Origin: Eledone cirrhosa
Taxonomy: Eukaryota
Reading direction: 5' to 3'
NCBI GenBank assembly: GCA_964016885.1
Contig: OZ024743.1
Coordinates: 136,152,001 to 136,216,000, forward strand
Length of the DNA: 64,000 bases
This document shows, one piece after another, positions 6,801 to 33,900 of this stretch (within the stretch, counting starts at the first letter, position 1; every line of letters begins with the position of its first letter). The notes beneath the pieces are model-generated. The model saw only the letters and a program-made list of their open reading frames with translations. It had not been told where the DNA came from and did no database searches. Made by a program: the position numbers and the translations under genes.

Positions 6801-7735
6801 CACTAAACAACAAACACCAAACAGCAAACACCAAACACCAAATAGCAAACACCAAACACCAACCAGGAAACACCAAACAGCAGACACCAAACAGCAATCG
6901 CCAAACAGCAAACACAAACACCAAACACCAAACAGCAAGCACCAAGCACCAAGCACAAAACACCAAGCACCAGGCGCCAAGTACCAAACACCAAACACCA
7001 AACACCAAACAGCAAACACCAATCACCAAACACCAAACCACCAAACACCAAACAGCAAACACCAAACACCAAACAGCAAACACCAAACACCAAACACCAA
7101 ACAGCAAACACCAAACAGCAAACACCAAACACCAAACACCAAACACCAAGCACGAAGCACCAAACACCAAGCACCAAGCAACAAACACCAATCACCAAGC
7201 ACCAAGCACTAAAAACCAAACACCCAGCACCAAGCACCAAGCACCAAAGACCAAGCACCAAGCACCAAGCACCAAACACCAAGCACCAAAGACCAAGCCC
7301 CAAATACCAAGCACCAAGCACCAAACACCAATCACCAGGCACCAAGCACCAAACACCAAGAACCAAGCACCAAGCACTAAACACCAAATACCAAGCACCA
7401 AGCACCAAACTCCAAACACCAAGCACCAAGTACCAAACTCCAAACACCAAACACCAAGGACCAAGCACCAAATCCCAAGCACCAAACACCAAGCACCAAT
7501 CACCAAACACCAAACACCAAGCACCAAGCACCAAACACCAAAAACCAAGCACCAAGCACCAAGCACCAAACACCAAACGCCAAACACCGAACACCAAGTA
7601 CCAAGCGCCAAACACCAAGCACCAAGCGCCAAAGACCAAACACCAGGCACCGAGCACGAAACACCAAGCACCAAGCACCAAACACCAAGAACCAAGCACC
7701 AAACACCAGACAGCAAGCACCAAGCACCAAACACC

Positions 7736-10700: not shown

Positions 10701-12035
10701 GCAAACACCAAACACCAACCAGGAAACACCAAACAGCAAACACCAAACAGCAAACGCCAAACAGCAAACACAAACACCAAACACCAAGCACCAAGCACCA
10801 AGCACAAAACACCAAGCACCAAGCGCCAAGCACCAAACACCAAACACCAAACACCAAACACCAAACACCAATCACCAGACACCAGACACCAAACACCAAA
10901 CAGCAAACACCAAACACCAAACAGCAAACACCAAACACCAAACACCATGCACCCAGAACCAAGCACCAAGCACCAAACACCAAACACCAAGCACCAAGCA
11001 CCAAACACCAAACACCAAGCACCAAGCACCAAGCACCAAGCACCAAACACCATACACCAAGCACCAAGCACCAAACACCAAAAACCAATCACCAAGCACC
11101 AAAGAGCAAACACCAAACCCCAAGCACCAAACACCAAACACCAAACACCAAACAACAAACACTAAACACCAAACACCAAACAGCAAACACCAAACACCAA
11201 ATAGCAAACACCAAACACCAACCAGGAAACACCAAACAGCAAACACCAAACAGCAAACGCCAAACAGCAAACACAAACACCAAACACCAAACACCAAGCA
11301 CCAAGCACCAAGCACAAAACACCAAGCACCAAGCGCCAAGCACCAAACACCAAACACCAAACACCAAACAGCAAACACCAATCAGCAAATACCAGACACC
11401 AAACACCAAACAGCAAACACCAAACACCAAACAGCAAACACCAAACACCAAACACCAAACAGCAAACACGAAACAGCAAACACCAAACAGCAGACACCAA
11501 ACAGCAAACACCAAACAGCAAACACCAAACACCAAACACCAAACACCAAGCACCAACCACCAAACACCAAGCACCAAGCAACAAACACCAATCACCAAGC
11601 ACCGAGCACTAAAAACCAAACATCTAGCACCAAGCACCAAGCACCAAACACCAAGCACCAAAGACCAAGCCCCAAATACCAAGCACCAAGCACCAAACAC
11701 CAATCACCAGGCACCAAGCACCAAACACCAAGAACCAAGCACCAAGCACTAAACACCAAATAACAAGCACCAAGCACCAAACACCAAACACCAAGCACCA
11801 AGTACCAAACTCCAAACACCAAACACCAAGCACCAAGCACCAAATCCCAAGCACCAAACACCAAGCACCAATCACCAAACACCAAACACCAAGCACCAAG
11901 CACCAAACACCAAAAACCAAGCACCAAGCACCAAGCACCAAACACCTAACGCCAAACACCGAAAACCAAGTACCAAGCACCAAACACCAAGCACCAAGCG
12001 TCAAAGACCAAACACCTAGCACCAAGCACGAAACA
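7736..12035 (+). repeat. Dispersed duplication of ~1.1 kb: ~7736-8850 matches ~10947-12035 (offset 3211, then ~3183)
   Basis: ORF pairs 7736/10947, 7951/11162 and 8171/11382. Shared rare variants include CATCTAG, CACCTAACGCC and GCGTCAAAGACC. Confidence 0.9.
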
Positions 12036-13199
12036 CCAAACACCAAGCACCAAGCACCAAACACCAAGCACCAACCACCAAGCACCAAACACCAAGCACC
12101 AAGCACCAAACACCAAGCACCAATCACCAAACAGCAAACACCAAGCACCAAACACCAAACACCAAACACCAAGCACCAAGCACCAAACAGCAAACACCAA
12201 ACAGCAAACACCAAACACCAAACACCAACCAGCAAACACCAAACACCAAACACCAAACAGCAAACACCAAACAGCAAACACCAAACACCAAACACCAAAC
12301 ACCAAACGCCAAAAAGTAAACGCCAAACCCCAAACGCCAAACAGCAAATGCCAAACCCCAAGCGCCAAACACCAAAGACCAAGCGCCAAGCAACAAACAC
12401 CAAACACCAAGCACCAAGCACCAAACACCAAACACCAAGCACCAAGTACCAAACACCAAACACCAAGCACCAAACACCAAACAACAAACGCCAAAAAGCA
12501 AACGCCAAACCCCAAACGCCAAACAGCAAACGCCAAGGACCAAACACCAAACACCAAGCGCCAAGCACCAAATACCAAACACCAAGCACCAAGCACCAAA
12601 CACCAAACACCAAGGACCAATCACCTAACACCAAGCACCAAGCGCCAAACACCAAAAACCAAACACCTAGCACCAAGCACCAAGCACCAAACACCAAGCA
12701 CCAAGCCCCAAGCACCAAACAGCAAGCATCCAGCACCATACACCAAACACCAAGCACCAAGCACCCAGAACAAAGCACCAAGCACCAAACACCAAACACC
12801 AAGCTCCAAGCACCAAACACCAAACACCAAGCACCAAGCACCAAGCACCAAGCACAAAACACCAAACACCAAGCACCAAGCACCAAACACCAAGCACCAA
12901 GCGCCAAACACCAAACACCAAACACCTAGCACCAAGCACCAAGCACCGAACACCAAGCACCAAACACCAAGCACCAAGCACCAAGCACCAAGCACCAAGC
13001 ACCAAACACCAATCACCAAGCCCCAAGCACCAAACACCAAGCACCAAGCACCAAACACCAAACACCAAGCACCAAGCACCCAGAACCAAGCACCAAGCAC
13101 CAAACACCAAACACCAAGCACCAAGCACCAAACACCAAACACCAAGCACCAAGCACCAAGCACCAAGCACTAAACACCATACACCAAGCAACAAGCACC

Positions 13200-16100
13200 A
13201 ATCACTAAACACTAAACACCAAGCACCAAGCACCAAACACAAACACCAAGCACCAAGTACCAAACTCCAAACACCAAACACCAAGCACCAAGCACCAAAT
13301 CCCAAGCACCAAACACCATTCACCATAAAACAAACACCAAACACCAAGCATGAAGCACCAAGCACCAAATACCAATCACCAAGCACCAAAGAGCAAACAC
13401 CAAGCCCCAAGCACCAAACACCAAACACCAAACACCAAACAGCAAACACTAAACACCAAACACCAAAGAGCAAACACCAAACACCAAATAGCAAACACCA
13501 AACACCAACAAGGAAACACCAAACAGCAAACACCAAACAGCAAACGCCAAACAACAAACACAAACACCAAACACCAAACACCAAACACCAAGCACCAAGC
13601 ACAAAACACCAAGCACCAAGCGCCAAGCACCAAACACCAAACACCAAACACCAAACACCAAACACCAATCACCAAACACCAGACACCAAACACCAAACAG
13701 CAAACACCAAACACCAAACAGCAAACACCAAACACCAAACACCAAACAGCAAACACCAAACAGCAAACACCAAACAGCAAACACCAAACAGCAATCAGCA
13801 AACACCAAACACCAAACACCAAGCACCAAGCAGCAAACACCAACACCAAGCAACAAGCACCAATCACCAAGCACCAAGCACTAAACACCAAACACCTAGC
13901 ACCAAGCACCAAGCACCAAACACCAAGCACCAAGCACCAAGCACCAAACACCAAGCACCAAAGACCAAGCCCCAAATACCAAGCACCAAGCACCAAACAC
14001 CAATCACCAGGCACCAAGCACCAAACACCAAGAACCAAGCACCAAGCACTAAACACCAAACACCAAGCACCAAGCACCAAACACCAAGAACCAAGCACCA
14101 AGCGCAAACACCGAACACCAAGCACCAAGCACCAAACACCAAGCACCAACCACCAAGCACCAAACACCAAGCACCAAGCACCAATCACCAAACACCAAGC
14201 ACCAAGCACCAAACACCAAACATCAAGCACCAAGCACCAAACACCAAACTACAAGCACCAAGCACCAAACACCAAATACCAAGCACCAAGCACCAACCAC
14301 CAAGCACCAAACACCAAGAACCAAGCACCAAGCACCAAACACCAAGCACCAAATACCAAGCACCAGACGCAAAGCACCAAGCACCAAGCACCAAAAACCA
14401 AGCACCAAGCTCCAAGCACCAAACACCAAGCACCAAACAACAAACACCAAGCACCAAGCACCAAACACCAAGCACCAAGCGCCAAAAACCAAACAATAAG
14501 CACCAAGCACCAAATACCAAGCACCAAGCACCAAGCACCAAGCACCAAACACCAAACACCAAACACCAAACACCAAACAGCAAACACCAAACACCAAACA
14601 CCAAACAGCAAACGCCAAACATCAAACGCCAAACACCAAACGCCAAACAGCAAACGCCAAACACCAAACGCCAAACAGCAAGCGCCAAGCACGAAACGCC
14701 AAACACCAAGCACCAAGCACCAAACACCAAACACCTAGCACCAAGCACCAAACACCAAACACCAAGCACCAAGCACTAAACGCCAAACACCAAGCGCCAA
14801 GCACCAAGCACCAAACACCAAGCACCAAGCACCGAGCACCAAACACCAAACAACGAGCACCAAGCACCAAGCACCAAACACCAAGCCCCAAGCACCAAAC
14901 ACCAACCAGCAAACACCAAACACCAAACACTAAAAAGCAAACACCAAACAGCAAACACCAAACAGAAACACCAAACACCAAACACCAAACAGCAAACGCC
15001 AAGCACCAAACGCCAAAAAGCAAATGCCAAAACCCAAACGCCAAACAGCAAACGCCATACCCCAAACGCCAAGCACCAAACACCGAACACCAAGCACCAA
15101 GCACCAAACACCAAACACCAAGCACCAATCACCAAGCACCAAACACCAATCACCAAGCCCCAAGCACCAAACACCAAGCGTCAAGCACCAAACACCAAAC
15201 ACCAAGCACCAAGCACCCAGAACCAAGCACCAAGCACGAAACACCAAACACCAAGCACCAAGCACCAAACACCAAATACCAAGCACCAAGCACCAAGCAC
15301 CAAACAGCATACACCAAGCACCGAGCACCAAACACCAAAAACCAATCACCAAGCACCAAAGAGCAAACACCAAGCCCCAAGCACCAAACACCAAACACCA
15401 AACACCAAACACTAAACAGCAAACACCAACCAGCAAACACCAAACAGCAAACACCAAACAGCAAACGCCAAACAGCAAACACAAACACCAAACACCAAAC
15501 AACCAAACACCAAGCACCAAACACCAAACACCAATCACCAGGCACCAAGCACAAAACACCAAGCACCAAGCTCCAAACACCAAACACCAAGCACCAACCA
15601 CCAAGCACCAAGCACAAAGCACCAAGCACCAAACACAAAACACCAAGTACCAGTCACCAAGCACCAAACACCAAACACCAAACACCAAACACCAAACACC
15701 AAACACTAAACACCAAACACAAAACACCAAACACCCAACAGCAAACACCAAACACCAAACACCCAACAGCAAACACCAAACAGCAAACACCAAACAGCAA
15801 ACACCAAACAGCAAACAGCAAACACCCAACACCAAACACAAAGCACCAAGCACCAAACACCAAGCACCAAGCAACAAGCACCAATCACCAAGCACCAAGC
15901 CCTAAACACCAAACACCAAGCACCAAGCACCAAGCACCAAACACCAAGCACCAAGCACCAAGAACCAAACGCCAAGCACCAAGCACCAAACACCAAGCAC
16001 CAAGCACCATGCACCAAGCACCAAAAACCAAGCACTAAGGACCAAGCACCACACACCAAGGACCAAGCACCAAACACCAAACACCAAGCACCAAGCACTA

Positions 16101-18630
16101 AACACCAAACACCAAGCACCAAGCACCAAACACCAAACACCAAGCACCAAGTACCAAACTCCGAACACCAAACACCAGGCACCAAGCACCAAGAACCAAG
16201 CAGCAAACACGAAACACCAAGCACCAAGCACCAAACACCAAACACCAAGCACCAAGCACCAAACACCAAATACCAAGCACCAAGCACTAAACACCAAACA
16301 CCAAACACCAAGCACCAAGCACTAAACACCAAACACCAAGCACCAAGCACCAAACACCAAACACCAAGCACCAAGTACCAAACTCTGAACACCAAACACC
16401 AGGCACCATGCACCAAGAACCAAGCAGCAAACACCAAACACCAAGCACCAAGCACCAAGCACCAAACACCAAACACCAAACACCAAGCACCAAGCACCAA
16501 ACACCAAGCACCAAGCGCCAAAGACCAAACACCAAGCACCAAGCATGAAACACCAAGCACCAAGCACCGAGCACCAAACACCAAGTACCAAGCACCAATC
16601 ACCAAACACCAAGAACCAAGCAGCAAACACCAAACACCAAGCACCAAGCACCAAACACCAAACACCAAGCACCAAGCACCAAACACCAAATACCAAGCAC
16701 CAAGCACTAAACACCAAACACCAAGCACCAAGCACCAAGCATCATGCACCAAGCACCAAACACCAAGCACCAAGCACCAAGCACCAAGCACCAAACACAA
16801 AACACCAAGTACCAAGCACCTACCACAAAACACCAAACACCAAACACCAAGCACCAGACACCAAGCACCAAGCACTAAGCACCAAGCACCAAAAACCAAG
16901 CACCAAGCTCCAAGCACCAAACACCAAGCACCAAGCACCAAACACCAAACACCAAGCACCAACCACCAAACACCAAATACCAAGCACCAAGCACCAGGCA
17001 CCAAGCACCAAATACCAAGCACCAAGCACCAAGCACCAAACACCAAGCACCAAACACCAAGCACCAGACACCAAGCACCAAGCACCAAACACCAAACAGC
17101 AAACACCAAACACCAAACAGCAAACACCAAACAGCAAACACCAAACACCAAACACCAACCAGCAAACACCAAGCACCAAGCACTAAACAGCAAACACCAA
17201 GCACCAAGCACCAAGCACCAAACACCAAGCACCAAGCACCAAGCACCAAACACCAAGCACCAAGCACCAACCACCAAGCAGCAAGCACCAAGCACCAAGC
17301 ACCAAACACCAAGCACCAAGCACCAAACACCAAACACCAAGCACCAATCACCAAACACCAAACACCAAGCACCAAGCACCAAACACCAAGCACCAAGCAC
17401 CAAAGAGAAAAAAACCAAGCACCAAGCATCAAACACCAAACACCAAACACCACACAGCAAACAGCAAACAGCAAACACCAAACAGCAAACACCAAATAGC
17501 AAACACCAAACAGCAAACACCAAACACCAAACAGCAAACACTAAACACCAAACACCAAGCACCAAGCACCAAGCACCAAACAACAAGCACCAAGCACCAA
17601 GCACCAAGCACCAAACACCAAACACCAATCGCCAAACACCAAACACCAAGCATCAAGCACCAAACACCAAACACCAAGCACCAAGCACCAAGCACCAAGC
17701 ACCAAACACCAAGCACCAAGCACCAATCACCAAACACCAAACACCAGGCACCAAACACCAAACAGCAAACACCAATCACCAAACACCAAACACCAAACAG
17801 CAAACACCAATCACCAAACAACAAACACCAAACACCAAACAGTAAACACCAAACACCAAACAGCAAACACCAAACACCAAACACCAAACAGCAAACACCA
17901 AACACCAAACACCAAACACCAAACACCAAACAAACAGCAAACAGCAAACACCAAACAGCAAACAGCAAACACCAAACACCAAACAACAAACGCCAAACAG
18001 CAAATGCCAGCCACCAGATGCCTAACAGCAAACGCCAAACACCAAACGCCAAACAGCAAACACCAAACACCAAACAGCAAACACCAAACACCAAACACCA
18101 AATAGCAAACACCAAACAGCAAACACCAAACACCAAACACCAAACAGCAAACACCAAACAGCAAACAGCAAACACCAAACACCAAACACCAAGCACCAAG
18201 CACCAAACACCAAGCACCAATCAACAAGCACCAATCACCAAGCACCAAGCACTAAACACCAAACACCAAGCACCAAGCACCAAGCACCAAACACCAAGCA
18301 CAAAGCACCAAGCACCAAACGCCAAGCAACAAGCACCAAACACCAAGCACCAAGCACCAAGAACCAAACACCAAGCACCAAAGACCAAGCACCAAATACC
18401 AAGCACCAAGCACCAAACACCAATCACCAAGCACCAAGCACCAAACACCAAGAACCAAGCACCAATCACTAAACACTAAACACCAAGCACCAAGCACCAA
18501 ACACAAACACCAAGCACTAAGTACCAAACTCCAAACACCAAACACCAAGCACCAAGCACCAAATCCCAAGCACCAAACACCATGCACCATAAAACAAACA
18601 CCAAACACCAAGCATGAAGCACCAAGCACC
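13200..18630 (+). repeat. Diverged block duplicated at offset 5264 bp (752 monomers): ~13200-13360 matches ~18465-18630
   Basis: ATCACTAAACACTAAAC at 13201 and 18465; CACCATAAAACAAACACC at 13321 and 18585; AGCATGAAGCACC in both copies. Confidence 0.85.
16090..16720 (+). repeat. Local ~200-224 bp tandem sub-repeats
   Basis: GTACCAAACTCYGAACACC at 16151 and 16375 (+224). AAGAACCAAG-CAGCAAAC, with the CAGC at 16201, 16425 and 16621. Confidence 0.8.
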
Positions 18631-21600
18631 AAATACCAAACACCAAACACCAAGCACCACATCAAACACCAAGCACCAAGCACCAATCGCCAAGCACCAA
18701 GCACCAAGCAACAAACACAAAGCACCAAACACCAAGCACCAAGCACCAAGCACCAAACACCAAGCACCAAGCACCCAACACCAAACACCAATCACCAAGC
18801 ACCAAAGAGCAAACACCAAGCCCCAAGCACCAAACACCCAACACCAAACACCAAAACATCAAACACCAATCACGAATCACCAAACAGCAAACAGCAAACA
18901 CCAAACACCAAACACCAAGCACCAAGCACCAAACACCAAACACCAAGCACTAAGCACCAAACACCAAATACCAAGCACCAAGCACTAAACACGAAACACC
19001 AAGCACCAAGCACCAAGCACCAAGCACCAAACACCAAGCACCAAGCACCAAGCACCAAACACCAAGCACCAAACACCAAGCACCAAACACCAAGCACCAA
19101 GCACCAAGCACCAGACACCAAGCACCAAGCACCAAACACCAAGCACCAAACACCAACCACCAAGCACCAAACACCAAACATCAAGCACCAAGCACCAAAC
19201 ACCAAACACCAAGCACCAAACAGCAAACACCAAGCACCAAACACCAAACACCAAGTACCAAGCACCAAACACCAAACACCAAGCACCAAACACCAAGCAC
19301 CAAGCCCCAAGCACCAAACACCAAGCACCAAGCACCAAACACCAAGCACCAAGCACCAAGCACCAAGCACCATTCACCAAACACCAAGCACCAAGCACCA
19401 AACAGCAAACACCAAACAGCAAACACCAAACACCAAACACCAACCGGCAAACACCAAACACCAAACACCAAACAGCAAACACCAAACAGCAAACGCCAAA
19501 CAGCAAATGCCAAACCCCATACGCCAAAAAGCAAACGCCAAGCGCCAAACACCAAACACCAAGCGCCAAGCACCAAACACCAAACACCAAGCACCAAGCA
19601 CCAAGTACCAAACACCAAGCACCAATCACCAAACACCAAGCACCAAGTGCCAAACACCAAACACCAAACACCTAGCACCAAGTACCAAGCACCAAACACC
19701 AAGCACCAAACACCAGGCACCAAGCACCAAGCACCAAACACCAAGCACCAAACACCAAGCACCAGACACCAAGCACCAAGCTCCAAGCACCAAGCACCAA
19801 AAACCAAGCACCAAGCTCCAAGCACCAAACACCAAGCACCAAACACCAAACACCAAGCACCAAGCACCAAACACCAAGCACCAAGCGCCAAACACCAAAC
19901 ACCAAGCACCAAGCACCAAATACCAAGCACCAAGCACCAAGCACCAAACACCAAACACCAAACACCAAACACCAAACACCAAGCACCAAGCACCAAACAC
20001 CAAACACCAAGCACCAAGCACCAAACACCAAACACCAAGCACCAAGCACCAAACACCAAATACCAAGCACCAAACACCAAGCACCAAGCACCAAGCACCA
20101 AACACCAAGCACCAAACACCAAGCACCAGACACCAAGCACCAAGCACCAAACACCAAGCACCAAACAACAAACACCAAGCACCAAGCACCAAACACCAAG
20201 CACCAAGCGCCAAACACCACACACCAAGCACCAAATACCAAGCACTAAACACCAAACACCAAGCACCAAGCACCAAACACCAAGCACCAAACACCAAACA
20301 GCAAAAACCAAACACCAAACACCAAACAGCAAACAGCAAACACCAAACAGCAAACACCAAACAGCAAACACCAAACACCAAACACCAACCAGCAAATACC
20401 AAACACCAAACACCAAACGCCAAACATTAAACGCCAAACACCAAACGCCAAACAGCAAACACCAAACACCAAATGCCAACCAGCAAGCACCAAGCACCAG
20501 ACACCAAGCACCAAGCACCAAACACCAAACACCAAGCACCAAGCACCAAACACCAAACACCAAGCACCAAGCACCAAGCACCAAACACCAAACACCAAAC
20601 ACCAAACAGCAAACACCAAACAGCAAACACCAAATAGCAAACACCAAACAGCAAACAGCAAACACAAAACACCAAACACCAAGCACCAAGCACCAAACAC
20701 CAAGCACCAAGCAACAAGCACCAATCACCAAGCACCAAGCACTAAACACCAAACACCTAGGACCAAGCACCAAGCACCAAATACCAAGCACCATGCACCA
20801 AGCACCAAACACCAAGCACCAAAGACCAAGCACCAAATACCAAGCACCAAGCACCAAACACCAATCACCAAGTACCAAGCACCAAGTCCCAAGCACCAAA
20901 CACCAAGCACCAATCACCAAACACCAAACACCAAGCACCAAGCACCAAACACCAAAAATCAAGCACCAAGCACCAAGCACCATACACAAAACGCCAAACA
21001 CAAAATACCAAGCACCAAGCACCAAACACCAAGCACCAAGCGCCAAAGACCAAACACCAAAAACCAAGCACAAAACACCAAGCACCAAGCACCGAGCACC
21101 AAACACCAAGTACCAAGCACCAATCACCAAACACCAAGCACCAAGCACCAAACACCAAACACCAAGCACCAAGCACCAAGCACCAAGCATCAAGCACCAA
21201 GCACCAAACACCAAGCACCAAGCACCAAGCACCAAACACAAAACAACAAGTACCAAGCACCAAACACTTAACACCAAACACCAAGCACCAAGCACCAAAC
21301 ACCAAACACCAAGCACCAAGCACCAGACACCAAGCACCAAGCACCAATCACCAGACACTAAGCACCAAGCACCAAACACCAAGCACCAAACACCAAGCAC
21401 CAAGCACCAAACACCAAACACCAAGCACCAAGCACTAAACACCAAACACCAAGCACTAAGCACCAAGCACCAAGCACCAAGCACCAAGCACCAAGCACCA
21501 AACACAAAGCACCAAGCACCAAACAGCAAACACCAAGCACCAAACACCCAACCCCAAGCACCAAGCACCAAGCACAAAACACCAAGCACCAAACACCAAG

Positions 21601-22451
21601 CACCAAGCCCCAAGCACCAAACACCAAGCACCAAGCACCAAACTCCAAGCACCAAGCACCAAGCACCATACACCAAACACCAAGCACCAAGCACCAAACA
21701 GCAAACACCAAACAGCAAACACCAAACACCAAACACCAACCAGCAAACACCAAACACCAAACACCAAACAGCAAACACCAAACAGCAAACACCAAACAGC
21801 AAACACCAAACAGCAAACGCCAAAAAGCAAACGCCAAACACCAAACGCCAAACAGCAAACGCCAAGCGCCAAACACCAAACACCAAGCGCCAAGCACCAA
21901 ACAGCAAACACCAAGCACCAAACACCAAGTACCAAACACCAAACACCAAGCACCAAACACCAAACAGCAAACACCAAAAAGCAAACACCAAGCCCCATAC
22001 GCCAAACAGCAAATGCCAAACCCCAAACGCCAAACAGCAAACGCCAATCACCAAACACCAAACACCAAGCGACAAGCACCAAACACCAAACACCAAGCAC
22101 CAAGCACCAAACACCAAACACCAAGCACCAATCACCAGACACCAAACACCAAGCACCAATCACCAAACACCAAGCACCAAGCGCCAAACACTAAACACCA
22201 AACACCTAGCACCAAGCACCAAGCACCAAACACCAAGCACCAAACACCAAGCACCAAGCACCAAGCACCAAACACCAAGCACCAAACACCAAGCACCAGA
22301 CACCAAGCACCAAGCACCAAGCACCAAGCACCAAAAACCAAGCACCAAGCTCCAAGCACCAAACGCCAAGCACCAAACACCAAGCAGCACCAAGCACCAA
22401 ACACCAAGCACCAAGCGCCAAACACCAAACACCAAGCACCAAGCACCAAAT

Positions 22452-22491
22452 ACCAAGCACCAAGCACCAAGCTTGGTGCTTGGTGCTTGGT
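22452..22491. other. Array inversion junction; perfect 40-bp spacer-less palindrome centred on AAGCTT (22469-22474)
   Basis: ACCAAGCACCAAGCACCAAG|CTTGGTGCTTGGTGCTTGGT. The first mismatch is 22451(T) against 22492(G). Confidence 0.98.
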
Positions 22492-22840
22492 GCTTGGTGT
22501 TTGGTGCTTGGTGCTTGGTGCTTGGTGTTTGGTGCTTGGTGCTTGGTGCTTGCACTTTGGTGGTTGCTGTTTGGTGCTTGGTGTTTGGTGCTTGGTGCTT
22601 GGTGCTGGGTGGTTGGTGTTTGGTGCTTGGTGCTTGGTGTTTGGTGCTTGGTGCTTGGTGCTTGTTGTTTGGTGCTTGGTGCTTGGTCTTTGGTGCTTGG
22701 TGTTTGGTGTTTGGTGATTGGTGCTTGGTGCTTGGTGCTTGGTGTTTGGTGCTTGGTGCTTGGTGATTAGTGTTTGGTGCTTGGTGCTTGGGGTTTGGTG
22801 TTTTGTGCTTAGTGCTTGGTGTTTGGTGTTTGGTGTTTGC

Positions 22841-23290
22841 TGTTTGCTGTTTGGTGTCTGCTTTTTGGTATTTGGTGTTTGCTGTATGGTGTTTGCTGTT
22901 TCGTATTTGGTGTTTGCTGTTTGGTGTTTGGTGTTTGGTGTTTGGTGCTTGGTGTTTGGTGCCTGGTGCTTGGTGTTTGGCGTTTGGTGTTTGGTGTTTG
23001 GTGCTTGGTGCCTGGTGCTTGTTGTTTGGTGTTTGGTACTTGGTGCTTGGTGTTTGGTGTTTGGTGTTTGCTGTTTGGTGTCTGCTTTTTGGTATTTGGT
23101 GTTTGCTGTATGGTGTTTGCTGTTTCGTATTTGGTGTTTGCTATTTGGTGTTTGGTGTTTGGTGTTTGGTGCTTGGTGTTTGGTGCCTGGTGCTTGGTGC
23201 TTGGTGTTTGGTGTTTGGTGTTTGGTGCTTGGTGCCTGGTGCTTGTTGTTTGGTGTTTGGTACTTGGTGCTTGGTGTTTGGTGTTTGGTG
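22841..23290 (-). repeat. 224-bp (32-monomer) tandem duplication
   Basis: TCTGCTTTTTGGTATTTGG…GCTGTATGG…TTCGTATTTGG starts at 22857 and 23081. TACTTGG at 23037 and 23261. Confidence 0.9.
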
Positions 23291-26200
23291 CTTGGTGTCT
23301 GGTGTTTGGTGCTTGGTGTTTGGTGTTTGGTGCTTGGTGCTTGGTGTTGGTGTTTGGTGTTTGGTGCTTGGTGCTTGGTGTTTTGTGTTTGGTGCTTAGT
23401 GCTTGGTGTTTGGTGTTTGGTGCTTGGTGTTTGGTGTTTGGTGTTTGCTGTATGTTGTTTGCTGTTTCGTGTTTGGTGTTTGCTGTTTGGTGTTTAATGC
23501 TTGGTGCTTGGTGCTTGGTGTTTGGTGCTTGGTGTTTGGTGTTTGGCGTTTGCTGTTTGCTGTTTGGTGTTTGGTGCTGGCTGTTTGGTGCTTGGTGCTT
23601 GGTGCTGGTTGGTTGGTGTTTGGTGCTTGGTGCTTGGTGTTTGGTGCTTGGTGCTTGGTGCTTGTTGTTTGGTGCTTGGTGTTTGGTGTTTGGTGCTTGG
23701 TGCTTGGTGCTTGGTGTTTGGTGCTTGGTGCTTGGTGCTTGGTGTTTGGTGGTTGGTGCTTGGTGATTAGTGTTTGGTGCTTGATGCTTGGGGTTTGGTG
23801 TTTTGTGCTTAGTGCTTGGTGTTTGGTGTTTGCTGTTTGGTGTCTGCTTTTTGGTATTTGGTGTTTGCTGTATGGTGTTTGCTGTTTCGTATTTGGTGTT
23901 TGCTGTTTGGTGTTTGGTGTTTGGTGTTTGGTGCTTGGTGTTTGGTGCTTGGTGCTTGGTGTTTGGCGTTTGGTGCTTGGTGCTTGGTGTTTGGTGCTTG
24001 GTGCTTGGTGTTTGGTGTTTGGTGCTTGGTGTTTGGTGTTTGGTGCTTGGTACTTGGTGTTTGGTGTGTGAAGCTTGGTGATTGATGCTTGTTGCTTGGT
24101 GCTTGGTGTTTGCTGTTTGGTGTTTGGTGCTTGGTGTATGTACTTGGTGCTTGGTGCTTGGTGTTTGGTGCTTGGTTCTTGGTGTTTGGTGCTTGGTGCT
24201 TGGTGCTTGGTGTTTGGTGCTTGGTGCTTGGTGTTTGGTGCTTGGTGTTTGGTGTTTGGTGCTTGGTGTTTGGTGCTTGGTGCCTGTTGCTTGGTGTTAA
24301 GTGTTTGGTGCTTGGTGCTTGGTGTTTGGTGCTTTGTGGTTGGTGCTTGGTGTTTGGTGCATGGTGCTTGGTGTTTGGGGCTTGGTGCCTGGTGCTTTGT
24401 GTTTGGTGCTAGGTGCTTGGTGCTTGGTCTTTGGTGTTTGGTGCTTGGTGCTCGGTGTTTGGTGCTAGGTGTTTGGTGCTTGGTGTTCGGTGCTTGGTGC
24501 TTGGTGCTTGGTGCTTGGTGTTAGGTGTTTGGTGCTTGGTGCTTGGTGTTTGATGTTTGGTCCTTGGTGCTTGGTGTTTGGTGTTTGGTGCTTGGTGCTT
24601 GGTGTTTCGTGTTTGGTGCTTGCTGCTTGCTGCTTGGTGTTTGGTGCTTGGTGATTGGTGCTTGGTGCTTGGTGCTTGGTGCTTGGTGTTTGGTGCTTGG
24701 TGCTTGGTGTTTGGTGTTTGGTGCTTGGTGCTTGGGGCTTGGTGTTTGGTGCTTGGTGTTAGGTGCTTGGTGTTTGGTGCTTGGTGCTTGGTGCTTGGTG
24801 TTTGGTGTTTGGTGTTTGGTGCTTGGTGTTTTGTGCTTGGTGCTTGTTGCTGGGTGGTTAGTGTTTGGTGCTTGTTGCTTGGTGTTTGGTGCTTGGTGCT
24901 TGGTGCTTATTGTTTGGTGATTGGTGCTTGGTGCTTGGTGCTTGGTGTTTGGTGCTTGGTGCTTGGTGCTTGGTGTTTGGTGCTTGGTGCTTGGTGCTTG
25001 GTTATTAGTGTTTGGTGCTTGGTGCTTGGGGTTTGGTGTTTGGTGCTTGGTGTTTGGTGTTTGGTGTTTGCTTTATGGTGTTTGCTGTTTCGTGTTTGGT
25101 GTTTGCTGTTTGGTGTTTAATGCTTGGTGCTTGGTGCTTGGTGTTTGGTGCTTGGTGCTTGGTGTTTGGAGTTTGCTGTTTGCTGTTTGGTGTTTGGCGC
25201 TTGCTGTTTGGTGCTTGGTGCTTGGTGCTGGTTGGTTGGTGTTTTGTGCTTGGTGCTTGGTGTTTGTTGCTTGGTGCTTGGTGCTTGTTGTTTGGTGCTT
25301 GGTGCTTGGTCTTTGGTGCTTGGTGTTTGGTGTTTGGTGCTTGGTGCTTGGTGCTTGGTGTTTGGTGCTTGGTGCTTGGTGCTTGGTGTTTGGTGGTTGG
25401 TGCTTGGTGATTAGTGTTTGGTGCTTGATGCTTGGGGTTTGGTGTTTTGTGCTTAGTGCTTGGTGTTTGGTGTTTGCTGTTTGGTGTCTGCTTTTTGGTA
25501 TTTGGTGTTTGCTGTAAGGTGTTTGCTGTTTTGTATTTGGTGTTTGCTGTTTGGTGTTTAGTGTTTGGTGTTTGGTGTTTGGTGCTTGGTGCTTGGTGTT
25601 TAGTGTTTGGTGTTTGGTGCTTGGTGTTTGGTGCTTGGTGCTTGGTGCTGGGTGGTTGGTGTTTGGTGCCTGGTGCTTGGTGCTTGGTGTTTGGTGCTTG
25701 GTGCTTGGTGCTTGTTGTTTGGTGCTTGGTGCTTGGTGCTTGGTCTTTGGTGCTTGGAGTTTGGTGGTTGGTGCTTGGTGCTTGGTGTTTGGTGTTTGGT
25801 GTTTGCTGTTTGGTGTTTGCTGTTTGGTGTCTGCTTTTTGGTGTTTGGTGTTTGCTGTATGGTGTTTGCAGTTTCGTATTTGGTTTATGCTGTTTGGTGT
25901 TTGGTGTTTGTTGTTTGATGCTGCGTGCTTGGTGTTTGGTGTTTGGTGCTTTGTGCTTGGTGCTTGGTGTTTGGCATTTGGTGCTTGGTGCTTGGTGTTT
26001 GGTGCTTGGTGCTTGGTGCTTGGTGTTTGGTGTTTGGTGCTTGGTGCCTGGTGCTTGTTGTTTGGTGTTTGGTGCTTAGTGCTTGGTGTTTGGTGTTTGG
26101 TGCTTGGTGCTTGGTGGCTGGTGGTTGGTGCTTGGTGTTTGGTGTTTGGTGTTTGGTACTTGGTGCTTGGTGCCTGGTGTTTGGTGCCTGGTGCTTGGTG

Positions 26201-29200
26201 CTTGTTGTTTGGTATTTGGTGCTTGGTGTTTGGTGTTTGGTACTTGGTGCTTGGTGCTTGGTGCTTGGTGTTTGGTCCTTGGTGCTTGGTGCTTGGTCTT
26301 TGCTGCTTGGGGTTTGGTGTTTGGTGCTTGGTGCTTGGTGTTTGGTGCCTGGTGCTTGGTGCTTGGTGTTTGGTATTTAATGCTTGGTGCTTGGTGCTTG
26401 GTGTTTGGTACTTGGTGCTTGGTGCTTGGTGTTTGGCATTTGCTGTTTGCTGTTTGGTGATTGGTGCTTGCTGTTTGGTGTTTGGTGTTTGGTGTTTGGT
26501 GTTTGGTGCTTGCTGTTTGGTGTTTGGTGCTTGGTGCTTGGTGATTAGTGTTTGGTGCATGGTCCTTGGTGTTTGTTGTTTGGTGTTTGGTGCTTGGTGT
26601 TTGGTGCTTGGTGCTTGCTGTTTGGTGGTTGGTGCTTGGTGTTTGGTGTTTGGTGTTTGGTGCTTGGTGCTTGGTGTTTGGTCCTTGGTGCTTGGTGCTT
26701 GGACTTTGCTGCTTGGGGTTTGGTGTTTGGTGCTTGGTGCTTGGTGCTTGGTGTTTGGTGCTTGCTGCTTGGTGCTTGGTGCTTGGTGTTTGGTGATTGG
26801 TGCTTGGTGCTTGGTGTTTGGCGTTTGCTGTTTGCTGTTTGGTGTTTGGTGTTTGCTGTTTGGTGTTTGCTGTTTGGTGTTTGGTGCTTGGTGCTTGGTG
26901 GCTGGTGTTTGGTGCTTGGTGTTTGGATTTTGGTGCTTGGTGCTTGGTGCCTTTTGTTTCGTGCTTGGTGCTTGGTGCTTGGTGTTTGGTGTTTGGTGCT
27001 TGGTGTTTGGTGTTTGGTACTTGGTGCTTGGTGCTTGGTGCTTGGTGTTTGGTGCTTGGTGCTTGGTGATTGGTGTTTGATGCTGCGTGTCTTGGTGTTT
27101 GGTGTTTGGTGCTTGGTGCTTGGTGTTTGGTGTTTGGAGCTTGGTGCCTGGTGCTTGTTGTTTGGTGCCTGGTGCTTGTTTTTTGGTGTTTGGTGTTTGG
27201 TGCTTGGTGTTTGGTGCTTGGTGCTTGGTGCTTGGTGTTTGGTGCTTAGTGCTTGGTGTTTGGTGCTTGGTGCTTGGTGTTTGGTGCTTGGTGCTTGGTG
27301 GTTGGTGCTTGGTGTTAGGTGTTTGGTGCTTGGTGCTTGGTGTTTGATGTTTGGTCCCTGGTGCTTGGTGTTTGGTGTTTGGTGCTTGGTGCTTGGTGTT
27401 TGGTGTTTGGTGCTTGCTGCTTGGTGCTTGGTGTTTTGTGTTTGGAGTTTGGTGTTGGTGTTTGGTGCTTCGGTCTTGGTGCTTGGTGTTTGGTGCTTGG
27501 TGCTTGGTGTTTGGTGCTTGGTGCCTGGTGCTTGGTGTTTGGTGCTTGGTGCTTGGTGTTTGGTGATTGGTGCTTGGTGTTTGGTGCTTGGTGCTTGGTG
27601 CTTGGTGCTTGGTGTTAGGTGTTTGATGCTTGGTGCTTGGTGTTTGATGTTTGGTGCTTGGTGCTTGGTGTTTGGTGTTTGGTGCTTGGTGCTTGGTGTT
27701 TGGTGTTTGGTGCTTGCTGCTTGCTGCTTGGTGTTTGGTGCTTGGTGATTGGTGCTTGGTGTTTTGTGCTTGGTGCTTGGTGTTTGGTGTTTGGTGCTAG
27801 GGGCTTGGTGCTTGGTGCTTGGTGTTTGGTGCTTGGTGCTTGCTGTTTGGTGTTTGGTGCTTGGTGCGTTGGACTTAGTGTTTGGTGTTTGGTGCTTGGT
27901 GTTTGGTGCTTGGTGTTTGGGGCTTGGTGTTCGGTGCTTGGTGCTTGGTGCTTGGGGCTTGGTGTTTGGTGTTTGGTGCTTGGTGCTTGGTGTTTGATGT
28001 TGGGTCCTTGGTGCTTGGCGTTTGGTCTTTGGTGCTTTGTGTTTGGTGTTTGGTGCTTGGTGCTTGATGTTTGGTGTTTGGTGCTTGGTGCTTGGGGCTT
28101 GGTGTTTGGTGCTTGGGGCTTGGTGTTTGGTGCTTGGTGCTTGGGGCTTGGTGTCTGGTGCTTGGTGCTTGGTGCTTGGTGTTTAGTGTTTGGTGTTTGG
28201 TGCTTGGTGTTTGGTGCTTGGTGCTTGGTGCTGGGTGGTTGGTGTTTGGTGCTTGGTGCTTGGTGTTTGGTGCTTGGTGCTTGGTGCTTGTTGTTTGGTG
28301 CTTGGTGCTTGGTGCTTGGTCTTTGGTGCTTGGAGTTTGGTGGTTGGTGCTTGGTGCTTGGTGTTTGGTGTTTGGTGTTTGGTGTTTGCTGTTTGGTGTT
28401 TGGTGCTTGGTGCTTGGTGGCTGGTGTTTGGTGCTTGGTGTTTGGATTTTGGTGCTTGGTGCTTGGTGCTTGGTGTTTCGTGCTTGGTGCTTGGTGCTTG
28501 GTGTTTGGTGTTTGGTGCTTGGTGTTTGGTGTTTGGTACTTGGTGCTTGGTGCTTGGTGCTTGGTGTTTGGTGCTTGGTGCTTGGTGATTGGTGTTTGAT
28601 GCTGCGTGTCTTGGTGTTTGGTGTTTGGTGCTTGGTGCTTGGTGTTTGGTGTTTGGAGCTTGGTGCCTGGTGTTTGCTGTTTGGTGTCTGCTTTTTGGTG
28701 TTTGGTGTTTGCTGTATGGTGTTTGCTGTTTCGTATTTGGTTTTTGCTGTTTGGTGTTTGGTGTTTGCTGTTTGGTGTTTGGTGTTTGGTGCTTGGTGCT
28801 TGGTCTTTGGTGCTTGGGGTTTGGTGTTTGGTGCTTGGTGCTTGGTGTTTGGTGCCTGGTGCTTGGTGCTTGGTTCTTGGCGTTTGCTGTTTGCTGTTTG
28901 CTGTTTGGTGCTTGCTGTTTGGTGTTTGGTGTTTGGTGTTTGGTGTTTGGTGCTTGCTGTTTGGTATTTGGTGCTTGGTGCTTGGTGATTAGTGTTTGGT
29001 GCATGGTCCTTGGTGTTTGTTGTTTGGTGCTTGGTGCTTGGTGTTTGGTGCTTGGTGCTTGCTGTTTGGTGCTTGGTGCTTGGTGTTTGGTGTTTGGTGT
29101 TTGGTGCTTGGTGCTTGGTGTTTGGTGCTTGGTGCTTGGTGCTGGGTGTTTGGTGCTTGGTGCTTGGTGTTTGGTGCTTTGTGCTTGGTGCTTGGTGCTT

Positions 29201-30999
29201 GGTGTTTGGTCCTTGGTGCTTGGTGCTTGGTCTTTGGTGCTTGGGGTTTGGTGTTTGGTGCTTGGTGCTTGGTGTTTGGTGCTTGGTGCTTGGTGCTTGG
29301 TGCTTGGTGCTTGGTGTTTGGTGTTTGGTGCTTACTGCTTGGTGCTTGGTGTTTGGTGCTTGGTGCTTGCTGTTTGGTGTTTGGTGTTTGGTGCTTGGTG
29401 CTTGGTGTTTGGTGTTTGGTGTTTGGTGATTGGTGTTTGGTGCTTGGTGCTTGGTGTTTGGTGCTTGGTGCTTGGTGCTTGTTGTTTGGTGTTTGGTGCT
29501 TGGTGCCTGGTGCTTGTTGTTTGGTGTTTGGTGCTTAGTGCTTGGTGTTTGGTGTTTGGTGCTTGGTGCTTGGTGGCTGGTGTTTGGTGCTTGGTGTTTG
29601 GTGTTTGGTGCTTGGTGCTTGGTGGCTGGTGTTTGGTGCCTGGTGCTTGGTGCTTGGTGTTTGGTGTTTGGCGCTTGGTGTTTGGTGTTTGGTACTTGGT
29701 GCTTGGTGCTTGGTGCTTGGTGTTTGGTGCTTGGTGCTTGGTGCTGTGTGATTAGTGTTTGGTGCTTGGTGCTTGGGGTTTGCTGTTTGGTGCTTGGTTC
29801 TTGGTGTTTGGTGCTTGGTGTTTTGTGTTTGGTGTTTGGTGCTTGGTGTATGTACTTGGTGCTTGGTGCTTGGTGTTTGGTGCTTGGTGCTTGGTGTTTT
29901 GTGTTTGGTGTTTGGTGCTTGGTGTATGTACTTGGTGCTTGGTGTTTGGTGTTTGGTGCATGGTGCTTGATGTTTGGGGCTTGGTGCCTGGTGCTTGGTG
30001 TTTGGTGCTTGGTGCTTGGTGCTTGGTGTTTGGTGCTTGGTGCTTGGTGCTTGGTGTTTGGTGCTTGGTGTTCGGTGCTTGGTGCTTGGTGCTTGGTACT
30101 TGGTGTTAGGTTTTTGGTGCTTGGTGCTTGGTGTTTGATGTTTGGTCCTTGGTGCTTGGTGTTTGGTGTTTGGTGCTTGGTGCTTGGTGTTTCGTGTTTG
30201 GTGCTTGCTGCTTGCTGCTTGGTGTTTGGTGCTTGGTGATTGGTGCTTGGTGTTTGGTGCTTGGTGCTTGGTGCTTGGTGTTTGGTGTTTGGTGCTAGGT
30301 GCTTGGTGCTTGGTGCTTGGTGTTTGGTGCTTGGTGCTTGGTGTTTGGTGTTTGGTGCTTGGTGCTTGGGGCTTGGTGTTTGGTGCTTGGTGCTTGCTGT
30401 TTGGTGCTTGGTGCTTGGTGCTTGGTGCTTGGTGCTTGGTGTTTGGTGCTTGGTGCTTGGTGCTGGGTGGTTGATGTTTGGTGCTTGGTGCTTGGTGTTT
30501 GGTGCTTGGTGCTTTGTGCTTATTGTTTGGTGCTTGGTGCTTGGTGCTTGGTCTTTGGTGCTTGGTGTTTGGTGTTTGTGCTTGGTGCTTGGTGCTTGGT
30601 GTTTGGTGCTAGGTGCTTGACGCTTGGTGTTTGGTGCTTGGTGCTTGGTGCTTGGTGATTAGTGTTTGGTGCTTGGGGTTTGGTGTTCGGTGTTTGCTGT
30701 TTGGTGTTTGCTGTTTGGTGTCTGCTGTTTGGTGTTTGGTGTTTGCTGTATGGTGTTTGTTGTTTTGTGTTTCGTGTTTGCTGTTTGGTATTTGGTGCTT
30801 GGTGCTTGGTGCTTGGTGCTTGGTGCTTGGTGGCTGGTGTTTGGTGCTTGGTGTTTGGATTTTGGTGCTTGGTGCTTGGTGCCTGGTGTTTCGTGCTTGG
30901 TGCTTGGTGCTTGGTGTTTGGTGTTTGGTGCTTGGTGTTTGGTGTTTTGTACTTGGTGCTTGGTGCTTGGTGCTTGGTGTTTGGTGTTTGGTGCTTGGT

Positions 31000-33900
31000 G
31001 CTTGGGGCTTGGTGTTTGGTGCTTGGTGCTTGGTGCTTGGTGTTTAGTGTTTGGTGTTTGGTGCTTGGTGTTTGGTGCTTGGTGCTTGGTGCTGGGTGGT
31101 TGGTGTTTGGTGCTTGGTGCTTGGTGTTTGGTGCTTGGTGCTTGGTGCTTGTTCTTTGGTGCTTGGTGCTTGGTGCTTGGTCTTTGGTGCTTGGAGTTTG
31201 GTTGTTGGTGCTTGGTGCTTGGTGTTTGGGGTTTGGTGTTTGCTGTTTGGTGTTTGCTGTTTGGTGTCTGCTTTTTGGTGTTTGGTGTTTGCTGTATGGT
31301 GTTTGCTGTTTCGTATTTGGCTTTTGCTGTTTGGTGTTTGGTGTTTGCTGTTTGGTGTATGGTGTTTGGTGTTTGGTGCTTTGTGCTTGGTGCTTGGTGT
31401 TTGGCATTTGGTGCTTGGTGCTTGGTCTTTGGTGCTTGGTGCTTGGTGCTTGGTGTTTGGTGTTTGGTGCTTGGTGCCTGGTGCTTGTTGTTTGGTGTTT
31501 GGTGCTTAGTGCTTGGTGTTTGGTGTTTGGTGCTTGGTGCTTGGTGGCTGGTGGTTGGTGCTTGGTGTTTGGTGTTTGGTGCTTGGTGCTTGGTGCCTGG
31601 TGTTTGGTGCCTGGTGCTTGGTGCTTGGTGTTTGGTATTTGGTGCTTGGTGTTTGGTGTTTGGTCCTTGGTGCTTGGTGCTTGGTCTTTGCTGCTTGGGG
31701 TTTGGTGTTTGGTGCTTGGTGCTTGGTGTTTGGTGCCTGGTGCTTGGTGCTTGGTGTTTGGTGTTTAATGCTTGGTGCTTGGTGCTTGGTGTTTGGTGCT
31801 TGGTGCTTGGTGCTTGGTGTCTGGCGTTTGCTGTTTGCTGTTTGCTGTTTGGTGTTTGCTGTTTGGTGTTTGGTGTTTGGTGTTTGGTGTTTGGTGCTTG
31901 CTGTTTGGTGTTTGGTGCTTGGTGCTTGGTGATTAATGTTTGGTGCATGGTCCTTGGTGTTTGTTGTTTGGTGCTTGGTGCTTGGTGTTTGGTGCTTGGT
32001 GCTTGCTGTTTGGTGGTTGGTGCTTGGTGTTTGGTGTTTGGTGTTTGGTGCTTGGTGCTTGGTGTTTGGTGTTTGGTGCTTGCTGCTTGGTGCTTGGTTC
32101 TTGGTGTTTGGTGTTTGCTGTTTGCTGTTTGGTGTTTGGTGTTTGCTGCTTGCTGCTTGGTGTTTGGTGCTTGGTGCTTGGTGCTTGGTGTTTGGCGTTT
32201 GCTGTTTGCTGTTTGGTGTTTGGTGTTTGCTGTTTGGTGTTTGCTGTTTGGTGTTTGGTGCTTGGTGCTTGGTGGCTGGTGTTTGGTGCTTGGTGTTTGG
32301 ATTTTGGTTCTTGGTGCTTGGTGCCTGGTGTTTCGTGCTTGGTGCTTGGTGCTTGGTGTTTGGTGTTTTGTGCTTGGTGTTTGGTGTTTGGTACTTGGTG
32401 CTTGGTGCTTGGTGCTTGGTGTTTGGTGCTTGGTGCTTGGTGATTGGTGTTTGATGCTGCGTGCTTGGTGTTTGGTTTTTGGTGCTTGGTGCTTGGTGTT
32501 TGGTGTTTGGAGCTTGGTGCCTGGTGCTTGTTGTTTGGTGCCTGGTGCTTGTTGTTTGGTGCTTGGTGCTTGGTGGTTGGTGCTTGGTGTTAGGTGTTTG
32601 GTGCTTGGTGCTTGGTGTTTGATGTTTGGTCCCTGGTGCTTGGTGTTTGGTGTTTGGTGCTTGGTGCTTGGTGTTTGGTGTTTGGTGCTTGCTGCTTGGT
32701 GCTTGGTGTTTTGTGTTTGGAGTTTGGTGCTTGGTGTTTGGTGCTTCGGTCTTGGTGCTTGGTGTTTGGTGCTTGGTGCTTGGTGTTTGGTGCTTGGTGC
32801 CTGGTGCTTGGTGTTTGGTGCTTGGTGCTTGGTGTTTGGTGATTGGTGCTTGGTGTTTGGTGCTTGGTGCTTGGTGCTTGGTGCTTGGTGTTAGGTGTTT
32901 GGTGCTTGGTGCTTGGTGTTTGATGTTTGGTGCTTGGTGCTTGGTGTTTGGTGTTTGGTGCTTGGTGCTTGGTGTTAGGTGTTTGGTGCTTGCTGCTTGC
33001 TGCTTGGTGTTTGGTGCTTGGTGATTGGTGCTTGGCGTTTTGTGCTTGGTGCTTGGTGTTTGGTGTTTGGTGCTAGGGGCTTGGTGCTTGGTGCTTGGTG
33101 TTTGGTGCTTGGTGCTTGCTGTTTGGTGTTTGGTGCTTGGTGCGTGGGACTTAGTGTTTGGTGTTTGGTACTTGGTGTTTGGTGATTGGTGTTTGGGGTT
33201 TGGTGTTCGGTGCTTGGTGCTTGGTGCTTGGGGCTTGGTGTTTGGTGTTTGGTGCTTGGTGCTTGGTGTTTGATGTTGGGTCCTTGGTGTTTGGTGTTTG
33301 GTCTTTGGTGCTTGGTGTTTGGTGTTTGGTGCTTGGTGCTTGATGTTTGGTGTTTGGTGCTTGGTGCTTGGGGCTTGGTGTTTGGTGCCTGGGGCTTGGT
33401 GTTTGGTGTTTGGTGCTTGGTGCTTGGGGCTTGGTGTCTGGTGCTTGGTGCTTGGTGCTTGGTGTTTAGTGTTTGGTGTTTGGTGCTTGGTGTTTGGTGC
33501 TTGGTGCTTGGTGCTGGGTGGTTGGTGTTTGGTGCTTGGTGCTTGGTGTTTGGTGCTTGGTGCTTGGTGCTTGTTGTTTGGTGCTTGGTGCTTGGTGCTT
33601 GGTCTTTGGTGCTTGGAGTTTGGTGGTTGGTGCTTGGTGCTTGGTGTTTGGTGCCTGGTGCTTGGTGCTTCGTGTTTGGCGTTTGCTGTTTGCTGTTTGC
33701 TGTTTGGTGCTTGCTGTTTGGTGTTTGGTGTTTGGTGTTTGGTGTTTGGTGTTTGCTGTTTGCTGTATGGTGTTTGCTGTTTCGTATTTGGTTTTTGCTG
33801 TTTGGTGTTTGGTGTTTGCTGTTTGGTGTTTAGTGTTTGGTGCATGGTCCTTGGTGTTTGTTGTTTGGTGCTTGGTGCTTGGTGTTTGGTGTTTGGTGTT

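What the first reader, a model, noticed from the sequence alone, without database searches (positions are those of the whole stretch)
22452..22491. Seamless strand switch in the satellite: perfect spacer-less palindrome between two long inverted arms
Seen: the array flips from (CACCAAR)n to (YTTGGTG)n with no inserted base. Both orientations share the GC at 22471-22472, a 2-bp microhomology that is the self-complementary dinucleotide of the G-type monomer. The result is a perfect 40-bp palindrome and a HindIII site, flanked by at least 22 kb of imperfect inverted repeat on each side. Known: spacer-less palindromes extrude cruciforms and are fragile, and orientation switches occur in centromeric satellite arrays. 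Inference: it formed by fold-back/template switching or microhomology joining, and may be a structural landmark such as a fragile site or chromatin boundary.
Basis: partly seen in the sequence, partly recalled or inferred. Interest (0 to 1): 0.75.

Follow-up and report, generated by a model that had tools for sequence, protein, structure and literature searches.

The report
Copied strand-flip seam in satellite DNA
The seamless flip of this 7-base repeat is real, but the same seam occurs eleven times along one 14.6-megabase array, so it is likely one old join at a shared GC that was copied as the array grew rather than a unique landmark.

Summary
Observation confirmed: the (CACCAAR)n array flips at window 22471/22472 with no insert, giving a perfect 40-bp palindrome. 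The arms are not mirror copies: they share no 100-mer, so this is no fold-back duplication. The seam is not unique. It occurs 11 times in a 14.6-Mb array on C4: 9 intact, 1 point mutant, 1 centre-deleted; 9 in one direction, 2 inverted; flanks 0.26-2.2% diverged. Ten copies pair with one non-palindromic opposite seam 105-256 kb away, inside 0.4-1.9 Mb macro-units. Copy-specific variants and short public-run contigs across the centre argue against a mis-join. Best reading: one old microhomology join at the monomer's only self-complementary dinucleotide, passively amplified. A second, independent seam uses the same GC without making a palindrome. Fragility or protection is not shown: centre loss of 1 in 11 is near background, though that deletion looks like a palindrome-stabilising one. 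It resembles amplified inversion sites of Tribolium and human satellites. The scan reported this class before in this genome, including the partner seam of this array.

The parts
1..22471 (+). Arm A: C-rich orientation of the 7-bp satellite (CACCAAR)n; the near end of a 185-kb C-rich island that starts at the partner seam J3 (C4:135.989 Mb), outside the window
22452..22491 (.). Perfect spacer-less 40-bp palindrome (20-bp arms, 55% GC) at seam J1
22471..22472 (.). Shared GC, the 2-bp microhomology that fits both orientations; centre of the HindIII site 22469-22474
   Evidence: sequence; natural continuations (homologs weak, so read from the canonical monomer)
22451..22451 (+). Variant base of arm A that ends the perfect arm; present in all 10 copies that keep the centre, so it marks common descent
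22472..64000 (-). Arm B: the same satellite in G-rich orientation (YTTGGTG)n, a different sub-family with its own kb-scale duplications; G-rich orientation continues outside the window to the next mapped switch at C4:136.967 Mb
24071..24076 (.). Second HindIII site, a point variant inside arm B; its distance from the seam differs between copies

Best explanation
The seam is one of eleven copies of a single junction in a 14.6-Mb satellite array; it was likely made once by joining two oppositely oriented satellite blocks at their shared GC and then likely multiplied passively by megabase-scale duplications and inversions. Step 1 (inferred): a break or template switch joined sub-family A to sub-family B in opposite directions through 2 bp of microhomology. 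GC is the only dinucleotide of the canonical monomer that reads the same on both strands, so such a join between G-type monomers is a spacer-less palindrome by arithmetic. Step 2 (inferred): a duplication of a large segment spanning the seam created a new opposite seam, J3. Step 3 (inferred): unequal exchange and inversions multiplied the unit to about eleven copies. Step 4 (shown): copies have since diverged by point changes and in-register indels; one has a point change next to the centre and one has lost the centre. No function is needed to explain it.
For: Same two arms, with the same rare variants, at all copies. 9 are A|B and 2 are B|A, and one opposed pair lies in a gap-free 104-kb stretch. 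Flanks differ by 0.26-2.19%. 10 J3 seams each lie 105-256 kb from a J1-type seam on its arm-A side, and sampled 5-kb blocks show the same order of sub-families in each unit. There are 11 J1-type seams against 10 J3, the n+1 count expected if J3 is the duplication seam. The terminal unit has no J3 and holds the best unjoined homolog of J3's G-rich arm (763-bp ungapped match at 143.083 Mb). J3's arms have unjoined homologs of 611-626 bp, J1's only 93-105 bp, which fits J1 being older. Seam J2 (3 copies, other flanks) joins at the same GC but is not a palindrome. Of 8 junction sequences, 3 show 2 bp and 6 show at least 1 bp of microhomology, against 2.7% and 17% by chance (p about 0.001 and 0.0005). 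The non-palindromic J3 has similar copy number and divergence (mean 0.69% vs 0.79%). In human satellites the number of strand switches scales with array length and is read as a by-product of expansion (10.64898/2026.07.22.740206, passages).
Against: Distances between J1 flanks do not correlate with distances between J3 flanks of the same units (Mantel rho -0.12, p 0.65, 10 units), so clean block co-duplication is not shown by the tree signal. The 20-bp perfect arm is in the upper 4% tail for a GC join. The centre deletion (about 80 bp of A and 650 bp of B) is the largest deletion seen within 1.5 kb in the 11 copies and the only sizeable one that in-register slippage cannot make. Only about a tenth of the array was read directly (1.46 Mb fetched in all, some outside the array). 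One scaffold gap was met (137.411 Mb), so order across gaps and duplicated haplotypes are not excluded. Microhomology lengths were read by eye, and the homologs for J1, J4 and J7's right arm are weak.
Confidence: 0.75

Rival explanations
1. The palindrome is active: hairpins at the seam break or stall replication and drove the megabase duplications, or the seam is kept as a structural landmark of (peri)centromeric chromatin.
For: J1 has the only spacer-less arm longer than 2 bp among 8 junction sequences and the most stable 50-nt hairpin (-25 vs -10 to -20 kcal/mol). It is the most amplified C-to-G seam. One copy has an asymmetric centre deletion, the lesion described as stabilising palindromes (PMC8701086, passages). 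Tribolium authors propose a function for conserved inversion sites (PMC13081366, sections 7 and 10, first parts).
Against: Centre loss of 1 in 11 matches flank loss of 8-13%. At 200 nt the non-palindromic seams J5, J6 and J7 fold about as well (-95 to -100 vs -103 kcal/mol). J3 is amplified as often without a palindrome. Unit ends lie 100 kb to 1 Mb or more from J1, not at it. The satellite was seen on C4 and in a small block on C2 only (first 100 of 228 matches listed), unlike a pan-centromeric repeat.
Confidence: 0.1
2. The seam began as a short fold-back: arm A's end copied itself for about 20 bases and then switched to a B-family template in register (or quasi-palindrome correction perfected the first 20 bp), before amplification.
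For: Arms of 20 bp or more occur in only 4% of GC joins. In a satellite a second, in-register switch would leave no scar.
Against: The 20 bp are the commonest monomer, so they carry no signature. No mirror identity beyond 20 bp. ODIRA-type junctions use interrupted repeats with 40-80 bp spacers (PMC10766186, passages). J2 uses the same GC without perfect arms.
Confidence: 0.12
3. The seam, or most of its copies, is an assembly artefact (mis-join, chimeric read or stacked haplotypes).
For: The array has at least one scaffold gap. No contig bridges the seam with 31 bases on both sides, and raw reads of three other individuals were uninformative (4, 0 and 0 reads laid). Runs X17-X19 are one sample and may be the assembly's source.
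Against: All copies share one breakpoint yet carry private variants and indels. Arms are not mirror copies, as in a fold-back chimera. 43-bp contigs with no mismatch cross the centre in X17 (28+15 bp, depth 188.5) and X18 (15+28 bp, depth 77.3). No N in the 10-kb stretches around the copies. Stacked haplotypes could lower the copy number but not remove the seam.
Confidence: 0.03

Closest known systems
Conserved, amplified inversion sites and macro-dyad symmetries of Tribolium madens TmSat1/TmSat2 (PMC13081366) and T. freemani (PMC12581902)
   Same: Back-to-back sub-arrays of one satellite; the inversion site is a small set of sequences copied many times (98.2-98.9% alike there, 97.8-99.7% here).
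   Different: There: thousands of sites, dyads up to 75 kb, all chromosomes, degenerate subunits and loops at the site. Here: 11 copies, 100-kb to Mb blocks, one array, 7-bp monomer, no spacer.
Strand switches in human beta-satellite and HSat3 arrays (10.1101/2021.07.12.452052; 10.64898/2026.07.22.740206)
   Same: Many switches inside long simple-sequence arrays, read as by-products of expansion.
   Different: Hundreds of switches per array there; 31 mapped in 14.6 Mb here, two-thirds of them copies of two seams in Mb-scale units.
Fold-back / ODIRA inverted duplications (PMC10766186)
   Same: Strand switch at very short homology.
   Different: Arms there are mirror copies of one locus with a 40-80 bp spacer; here the arms are different sub-families and there is no spacer.
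Fragile palindromes such as PATRRs (PMC7999016) and transgene palindromes (PMC8701086)
   Same: Spacer-less symmetry; one copy shows an asymmetric centre deletion.
   Different: PATRRs are several hundred bp and over 90% AT; this perfect part is 40 bp and 55% GC, and 10 of 11 copies keep the centre.

Membership tests
Amplified satellite inversion site (Tribolium type) | Opposite sub-arrays of the same satellite meet at the site | tested here: met
Amplified satellite inversion site (Tribolium type) | The site recurs as near-identical copies of one junction | tested here: met
   11 copies, 0.26-2.19% apart
Amplified satellite inversion site (Tribolium type) | Present on all chromosomes as the dominant satellite | tested here: not met
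   All junction hits are on C4; the listed satellite matches are on C4 and one block on C2 (100 of 228 listed)
Amplified satellite inversion site (Tribolium type) | (Peri)centromeric location or CENH3 binding | not testable with these tools
   No chromatin or cytogenetic data; array lies at 129-143 Mb of a 379-Mb sequence
Fold-back / ODIRA inverted duplication | Arms are mirror copies of one stretch of DNA | tested here: not met
   0 shared 100-mers, longest exact match 77 bp and off-diagonal
Fold-back / ODIRA inverted duplication | Junction at an interrupted short inverted repeat with a spacer | tested here: not met
   No spacer; definition from passages of PMC10766186
Simple reciprocal inversion (J1 and J3 as the two ends) | Re-inverting restores the natural neighbours of each arm | tested here: not met
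   Unjoined homologs of J3's arms continue into sequence that is neither arm A nor arm B
Microhomology-mediated join (MMEJ/NHEJ or template switch) | 1-3 bases shared by both parental sequences at the joint, above chance | tested here: met
   GC at J1; 3 of 8 junctions with 2 bp, 6 of 8 with at least 1 bp. The pathway itself cannot be told from sequence.
Fragile palindrome (PATRR type) | Several hundred bp, over 90% AT | tested here: not met
   40 bp, 55% GC; definition from passages of PMC7999016
Fragile palindrome (PATRR type) | Excess of rearrangements at the centre | tested here: inconclusive
   1 of 11 centre-deleted, 1 of 11 point mutant; background loss 8-13%
Fragile palindrome (PATRR type) | Cruciform extrusion or breakage in vivo | not testable with these tools
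   Only single-strand folding was computed
Assembly mis-join or chimeric read | Junction absent from read-derived data, or sitting at a gap | tested here: not met
   Short contigs cross the centre in 2 of the 4 runs laid (below the tool's 31-base bridging standard, possibly the source sample); no N near the copies

The most novel reading that the evidence does not exclude
The spacer-less seam is the founding centre of the array and an active break or hairpin site that drove, or is retained within, a megabase-scale higher-order repeat (0.4-1.9 Mb units, about eleven copies) built from a 7-bp monomer. The array then holds a natural allelic series (intact, point mutant, centre-deleted, and non-palindromic control seams) in which the macro-dyad hypothesis of satellite and centromere function can be tested within one genome.
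Probability: 0.1. Interest if true: 0.6.

Novelty: new member of a known kind. Interest (0 to 1): 0.3.

Why it matters
It shows that a perfect, spacer-less palindrome in a satellite need not be a fold-back scar or a landmark: monomer arithmetic plus copying explains it. The copies give the order of events and the unit of growth (about a megabase) in a 14.6-Mb simple-sequence array. If function or fragility were found, the intact, mutant and deleted copies next to non-palindromic seams would be a ready internal control for the proposal that dyad symmetry shapes (peri)centromeric chromatin.

Tried and rejected
Fold-back mirror test: negative. Palindromic G-to-C seam with up to 12 bp spacer between canonical monomers: 0 hits. 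My interim idea that all G-to-C seams are unique was wrong: patterns with canonical monomers missed J3, which an earlier scan note pointed to and one search found 10 times. J1 and J3 as reciprocal ends of one inversion: rejected. Co-phylogeny of J1 and J3 flanks: no correlation. RAD-seq raw reads X21-X23: 4, 0 and 0 reads laid, no test. X19 and X20 showed no listed contig across the centre, but the table was cut. Small-share metagenome rows were not used. The folding z-score of -16 was set aside because any strand switch folds this way. ORFs in the inserted block at 140.10 Mb are repeat read-throughs. Telomere fusion was rejected from general knowledge: a fusion reads G-rich then C-rich, the opposite order. 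Six literature searches listed no paper on this satellite; the library lacks most subscription journals. No supplementary files were read, and those of the Tribolium and human centromere papers may hold junction sequences that bear on the comparison. The organism was not tested; earlier scan notes call it octopus-like.

Full report
Observation. The whole window is one 7-bp satellite, C-rich (CACCAAR) to 22471 and G-rich after it. The switch has no inserted base. The perfect palindrome is 22452-22491, the only one with arms of 5 bp or more in the window, and AAGCTT lies at 22469 and 24071.

The arms are not mirror images. Read outward from the centre they are identical for 20 bp only. They share no 100-mer and the longest exact match is 77 bp, off the diagonal, while each arm has long internal duplications (up to 2861 bp exact). 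This rules out a fold-back duplication or a fold-back chimeric read of one molecule.

The seam is one of eleven. The window is G000:C4:136,152,001-136,216,000. The exact seam (J1) occurs 9 times on C4 between 130.4 and 142.9 Mb. A tenth copy at 138.931 has one change 3 bases from the centre. An eleventh at 131.693 has lost about 80 bp of arm A and 650 bp of arm B across the centre. All carry the same two arms with the same rare variants; 9 are A|B and 2 are B|A. Flanks of 2 kb each side differ by 0.26-2.19%. The junction therefore arose once (inference from shared variants).

Array map. The array runs from about 128.823 Mb (C-rich) to 143.422 Mb (G-rich). Pattern searches and probes gave 31 switches that alternate correctly: J1-type 11, J2 3, J3 10, J4 1, J5 1, J6 2, J7 1, and 2 across an inserted block or gap. 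J3 was found after an earlier scan note (e1-10312946) pointed to it; I verified it. Each of the 10 J3 seams lies 105-256 kb from a J1-type seam on its arm-A side. Clustering 189 sampled blocks by shared 80-mers shows the same order of sub-families in each unit (output partly cut); successive same-direction J3 seams are 0.44-1.85 Mb apart. Only 1.46 Mb was fetched, some of it outside the array, so small inversions may be missing. One 200-N scaffold gap was met at 137.411 Mb.

Order of events (inferred). J1 and J3 are not the two ends of one clean inversion: unjoined homologs of J3's arms continue into neither arm A nor arm B. The data fit J3 as the seam of a duplication that spanned J1. There is one more J1 than J3. 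The terminal unit has no J3 and holds the best unjoined homolog of J3's G-rich arm (763 bp, 143.083 Mb). J3's arms have unjoined relatives of 611-626 bp and J1's only 93-105 bp. Against a tidy history: J1 and J3 flank distances do not correlate across the 10 units (rho -0.12, p 0.65), and the terminal unit lacks the sub-family that abuts J3 inside the island.

Why a palindrome. GC is the only self-complementary dinucleotide of the canonical monomer (sequence). Random joins have 2 bp or more of microhomology in 2.7% and at least 1 bp in 17% of draws. By my reading, 3 of 8 junction sequences have 2 bp (J1, J2, J5), 3 have at least 1 bp (J3, J4, the deletion) and 2 have none (J6, J7); p is about 0.001 and 0.0005, with weak homologs for some. 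J2 has other flanks, joins at the same GC, and is not a palindrome because the next monomer is a variant. Given a GC join, arms of 20 bp or more occur in 4% of draws, which leaves some room for a short fold-back or later perfection.

Real or artefact. Private variants and indels at a shared breakpoint, an opposed pair in a gap-free 104-kb stretch, and mismatch-free 43-bp contigs across the centre in runs X17 and X18 support a real seam. Those contigs fall short of 31 bases on both sides and may come from the assembly's own sample. Raw reads of three other samples gave no test. Stacked haplotypes could reduce the copy number.

Fragile or functional. 10 of 11 copies keep the centre. An average flank position is missing in 8-13% of copies, so neither excess loss nor protection is shown. 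The one centre deletion is the largest deletion within 1.5 kb, is asymmetric, and cannot arise by in-register slippage, which explains nearly all other indels (multiples of 7). It resembles the palindrome-stabilising deletions reviewed in PMC8701086 (passages), but it is a single case. J1 has the best local hairpin, yet at 200 nt three non-palindromic seams fold about as well. J3 is copied as often with similar divergence. No chromatin data were available.

Comparison. Closest are the conserved, amplified inversion sites of Tribolium madens (PMC13081366: abstract and first parts of sections 7 and 10) and T. freemani (PMC12581902: abstract and outline), and the strand switches of human beta-satellite and HSat3 (10.1101/2021.07.12.452052, passages; 10.64898/2026.07.22.740206, passages). 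It fails the tests for fold-back/ODIRA duplications (PMC10766186, passages) and PATRR-type palindromes (PMC7999016, passages). Six searches listed no paper on this satellite. No supplements were read. The scan has reported copied inversion seams in other satellites of this genome; those notes are unchecked leads apart from the one tested.

Verdict. A real, seamless strand switch; likely one old microhomology join copied about eleven times within megabase units; new member of a known kind; interest 0.3.

Noticed in passing
window about 37910-48577: Recent 5334-bp tandem duplication in arm B (exact runs of 1647 and 2861 bp); arm A has 5240-bp and 3.2-kb periods. The array grows locally in kb-scale steps.
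   Followed up: partly
L163, L177-L184, L123, L164 (C4:140.036-140.135 Mb or more): About 35 kb of non-satellite DNA followed by over 60 kb of a second satellite (about 25-27-bp units with a TTATCTCC core) is inserted in the array, and the 7-bp repeat changes strand across it.
   Followed up: partly
L160:1371-2175 (C4:137.411 Mb): A 200-N scaffold gap followed by about 600 bp of the same second satellite, at the place matching the 140.04-Mb insertion; the rest of that block may be missing from the assembly here.
   Followed up: partly
L170-L174 (C2:250.86-250.92 Mb): A block of at least 60 kb of the 7-bp satellite sits inside an array of the second satellite on another chromosome, the reverse of the arrangement on C4.
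   Followed up: partly
L008, L014-L022, L009 (C4:134.432-134.526 Mb): Two J1 copies face each other 94 kb apart with B arms of 35 and 59 kb meeting at the unique seam J5: a true large inverted duplication of arm B.
   Followed up: partly
L076, L077, L034 (C4:129.212-129.226 Mb): A 13.8-kb G-rich block inside the C-rich left part, bounded by J2 and J4.
   Followed up: partly
G000:C1:279079704-279079779: An isolated 76-bp near-perfect inverted repeat whose ends resemble the satellite monomer; possibly a MITE-like element or chance.
   Followed up: no
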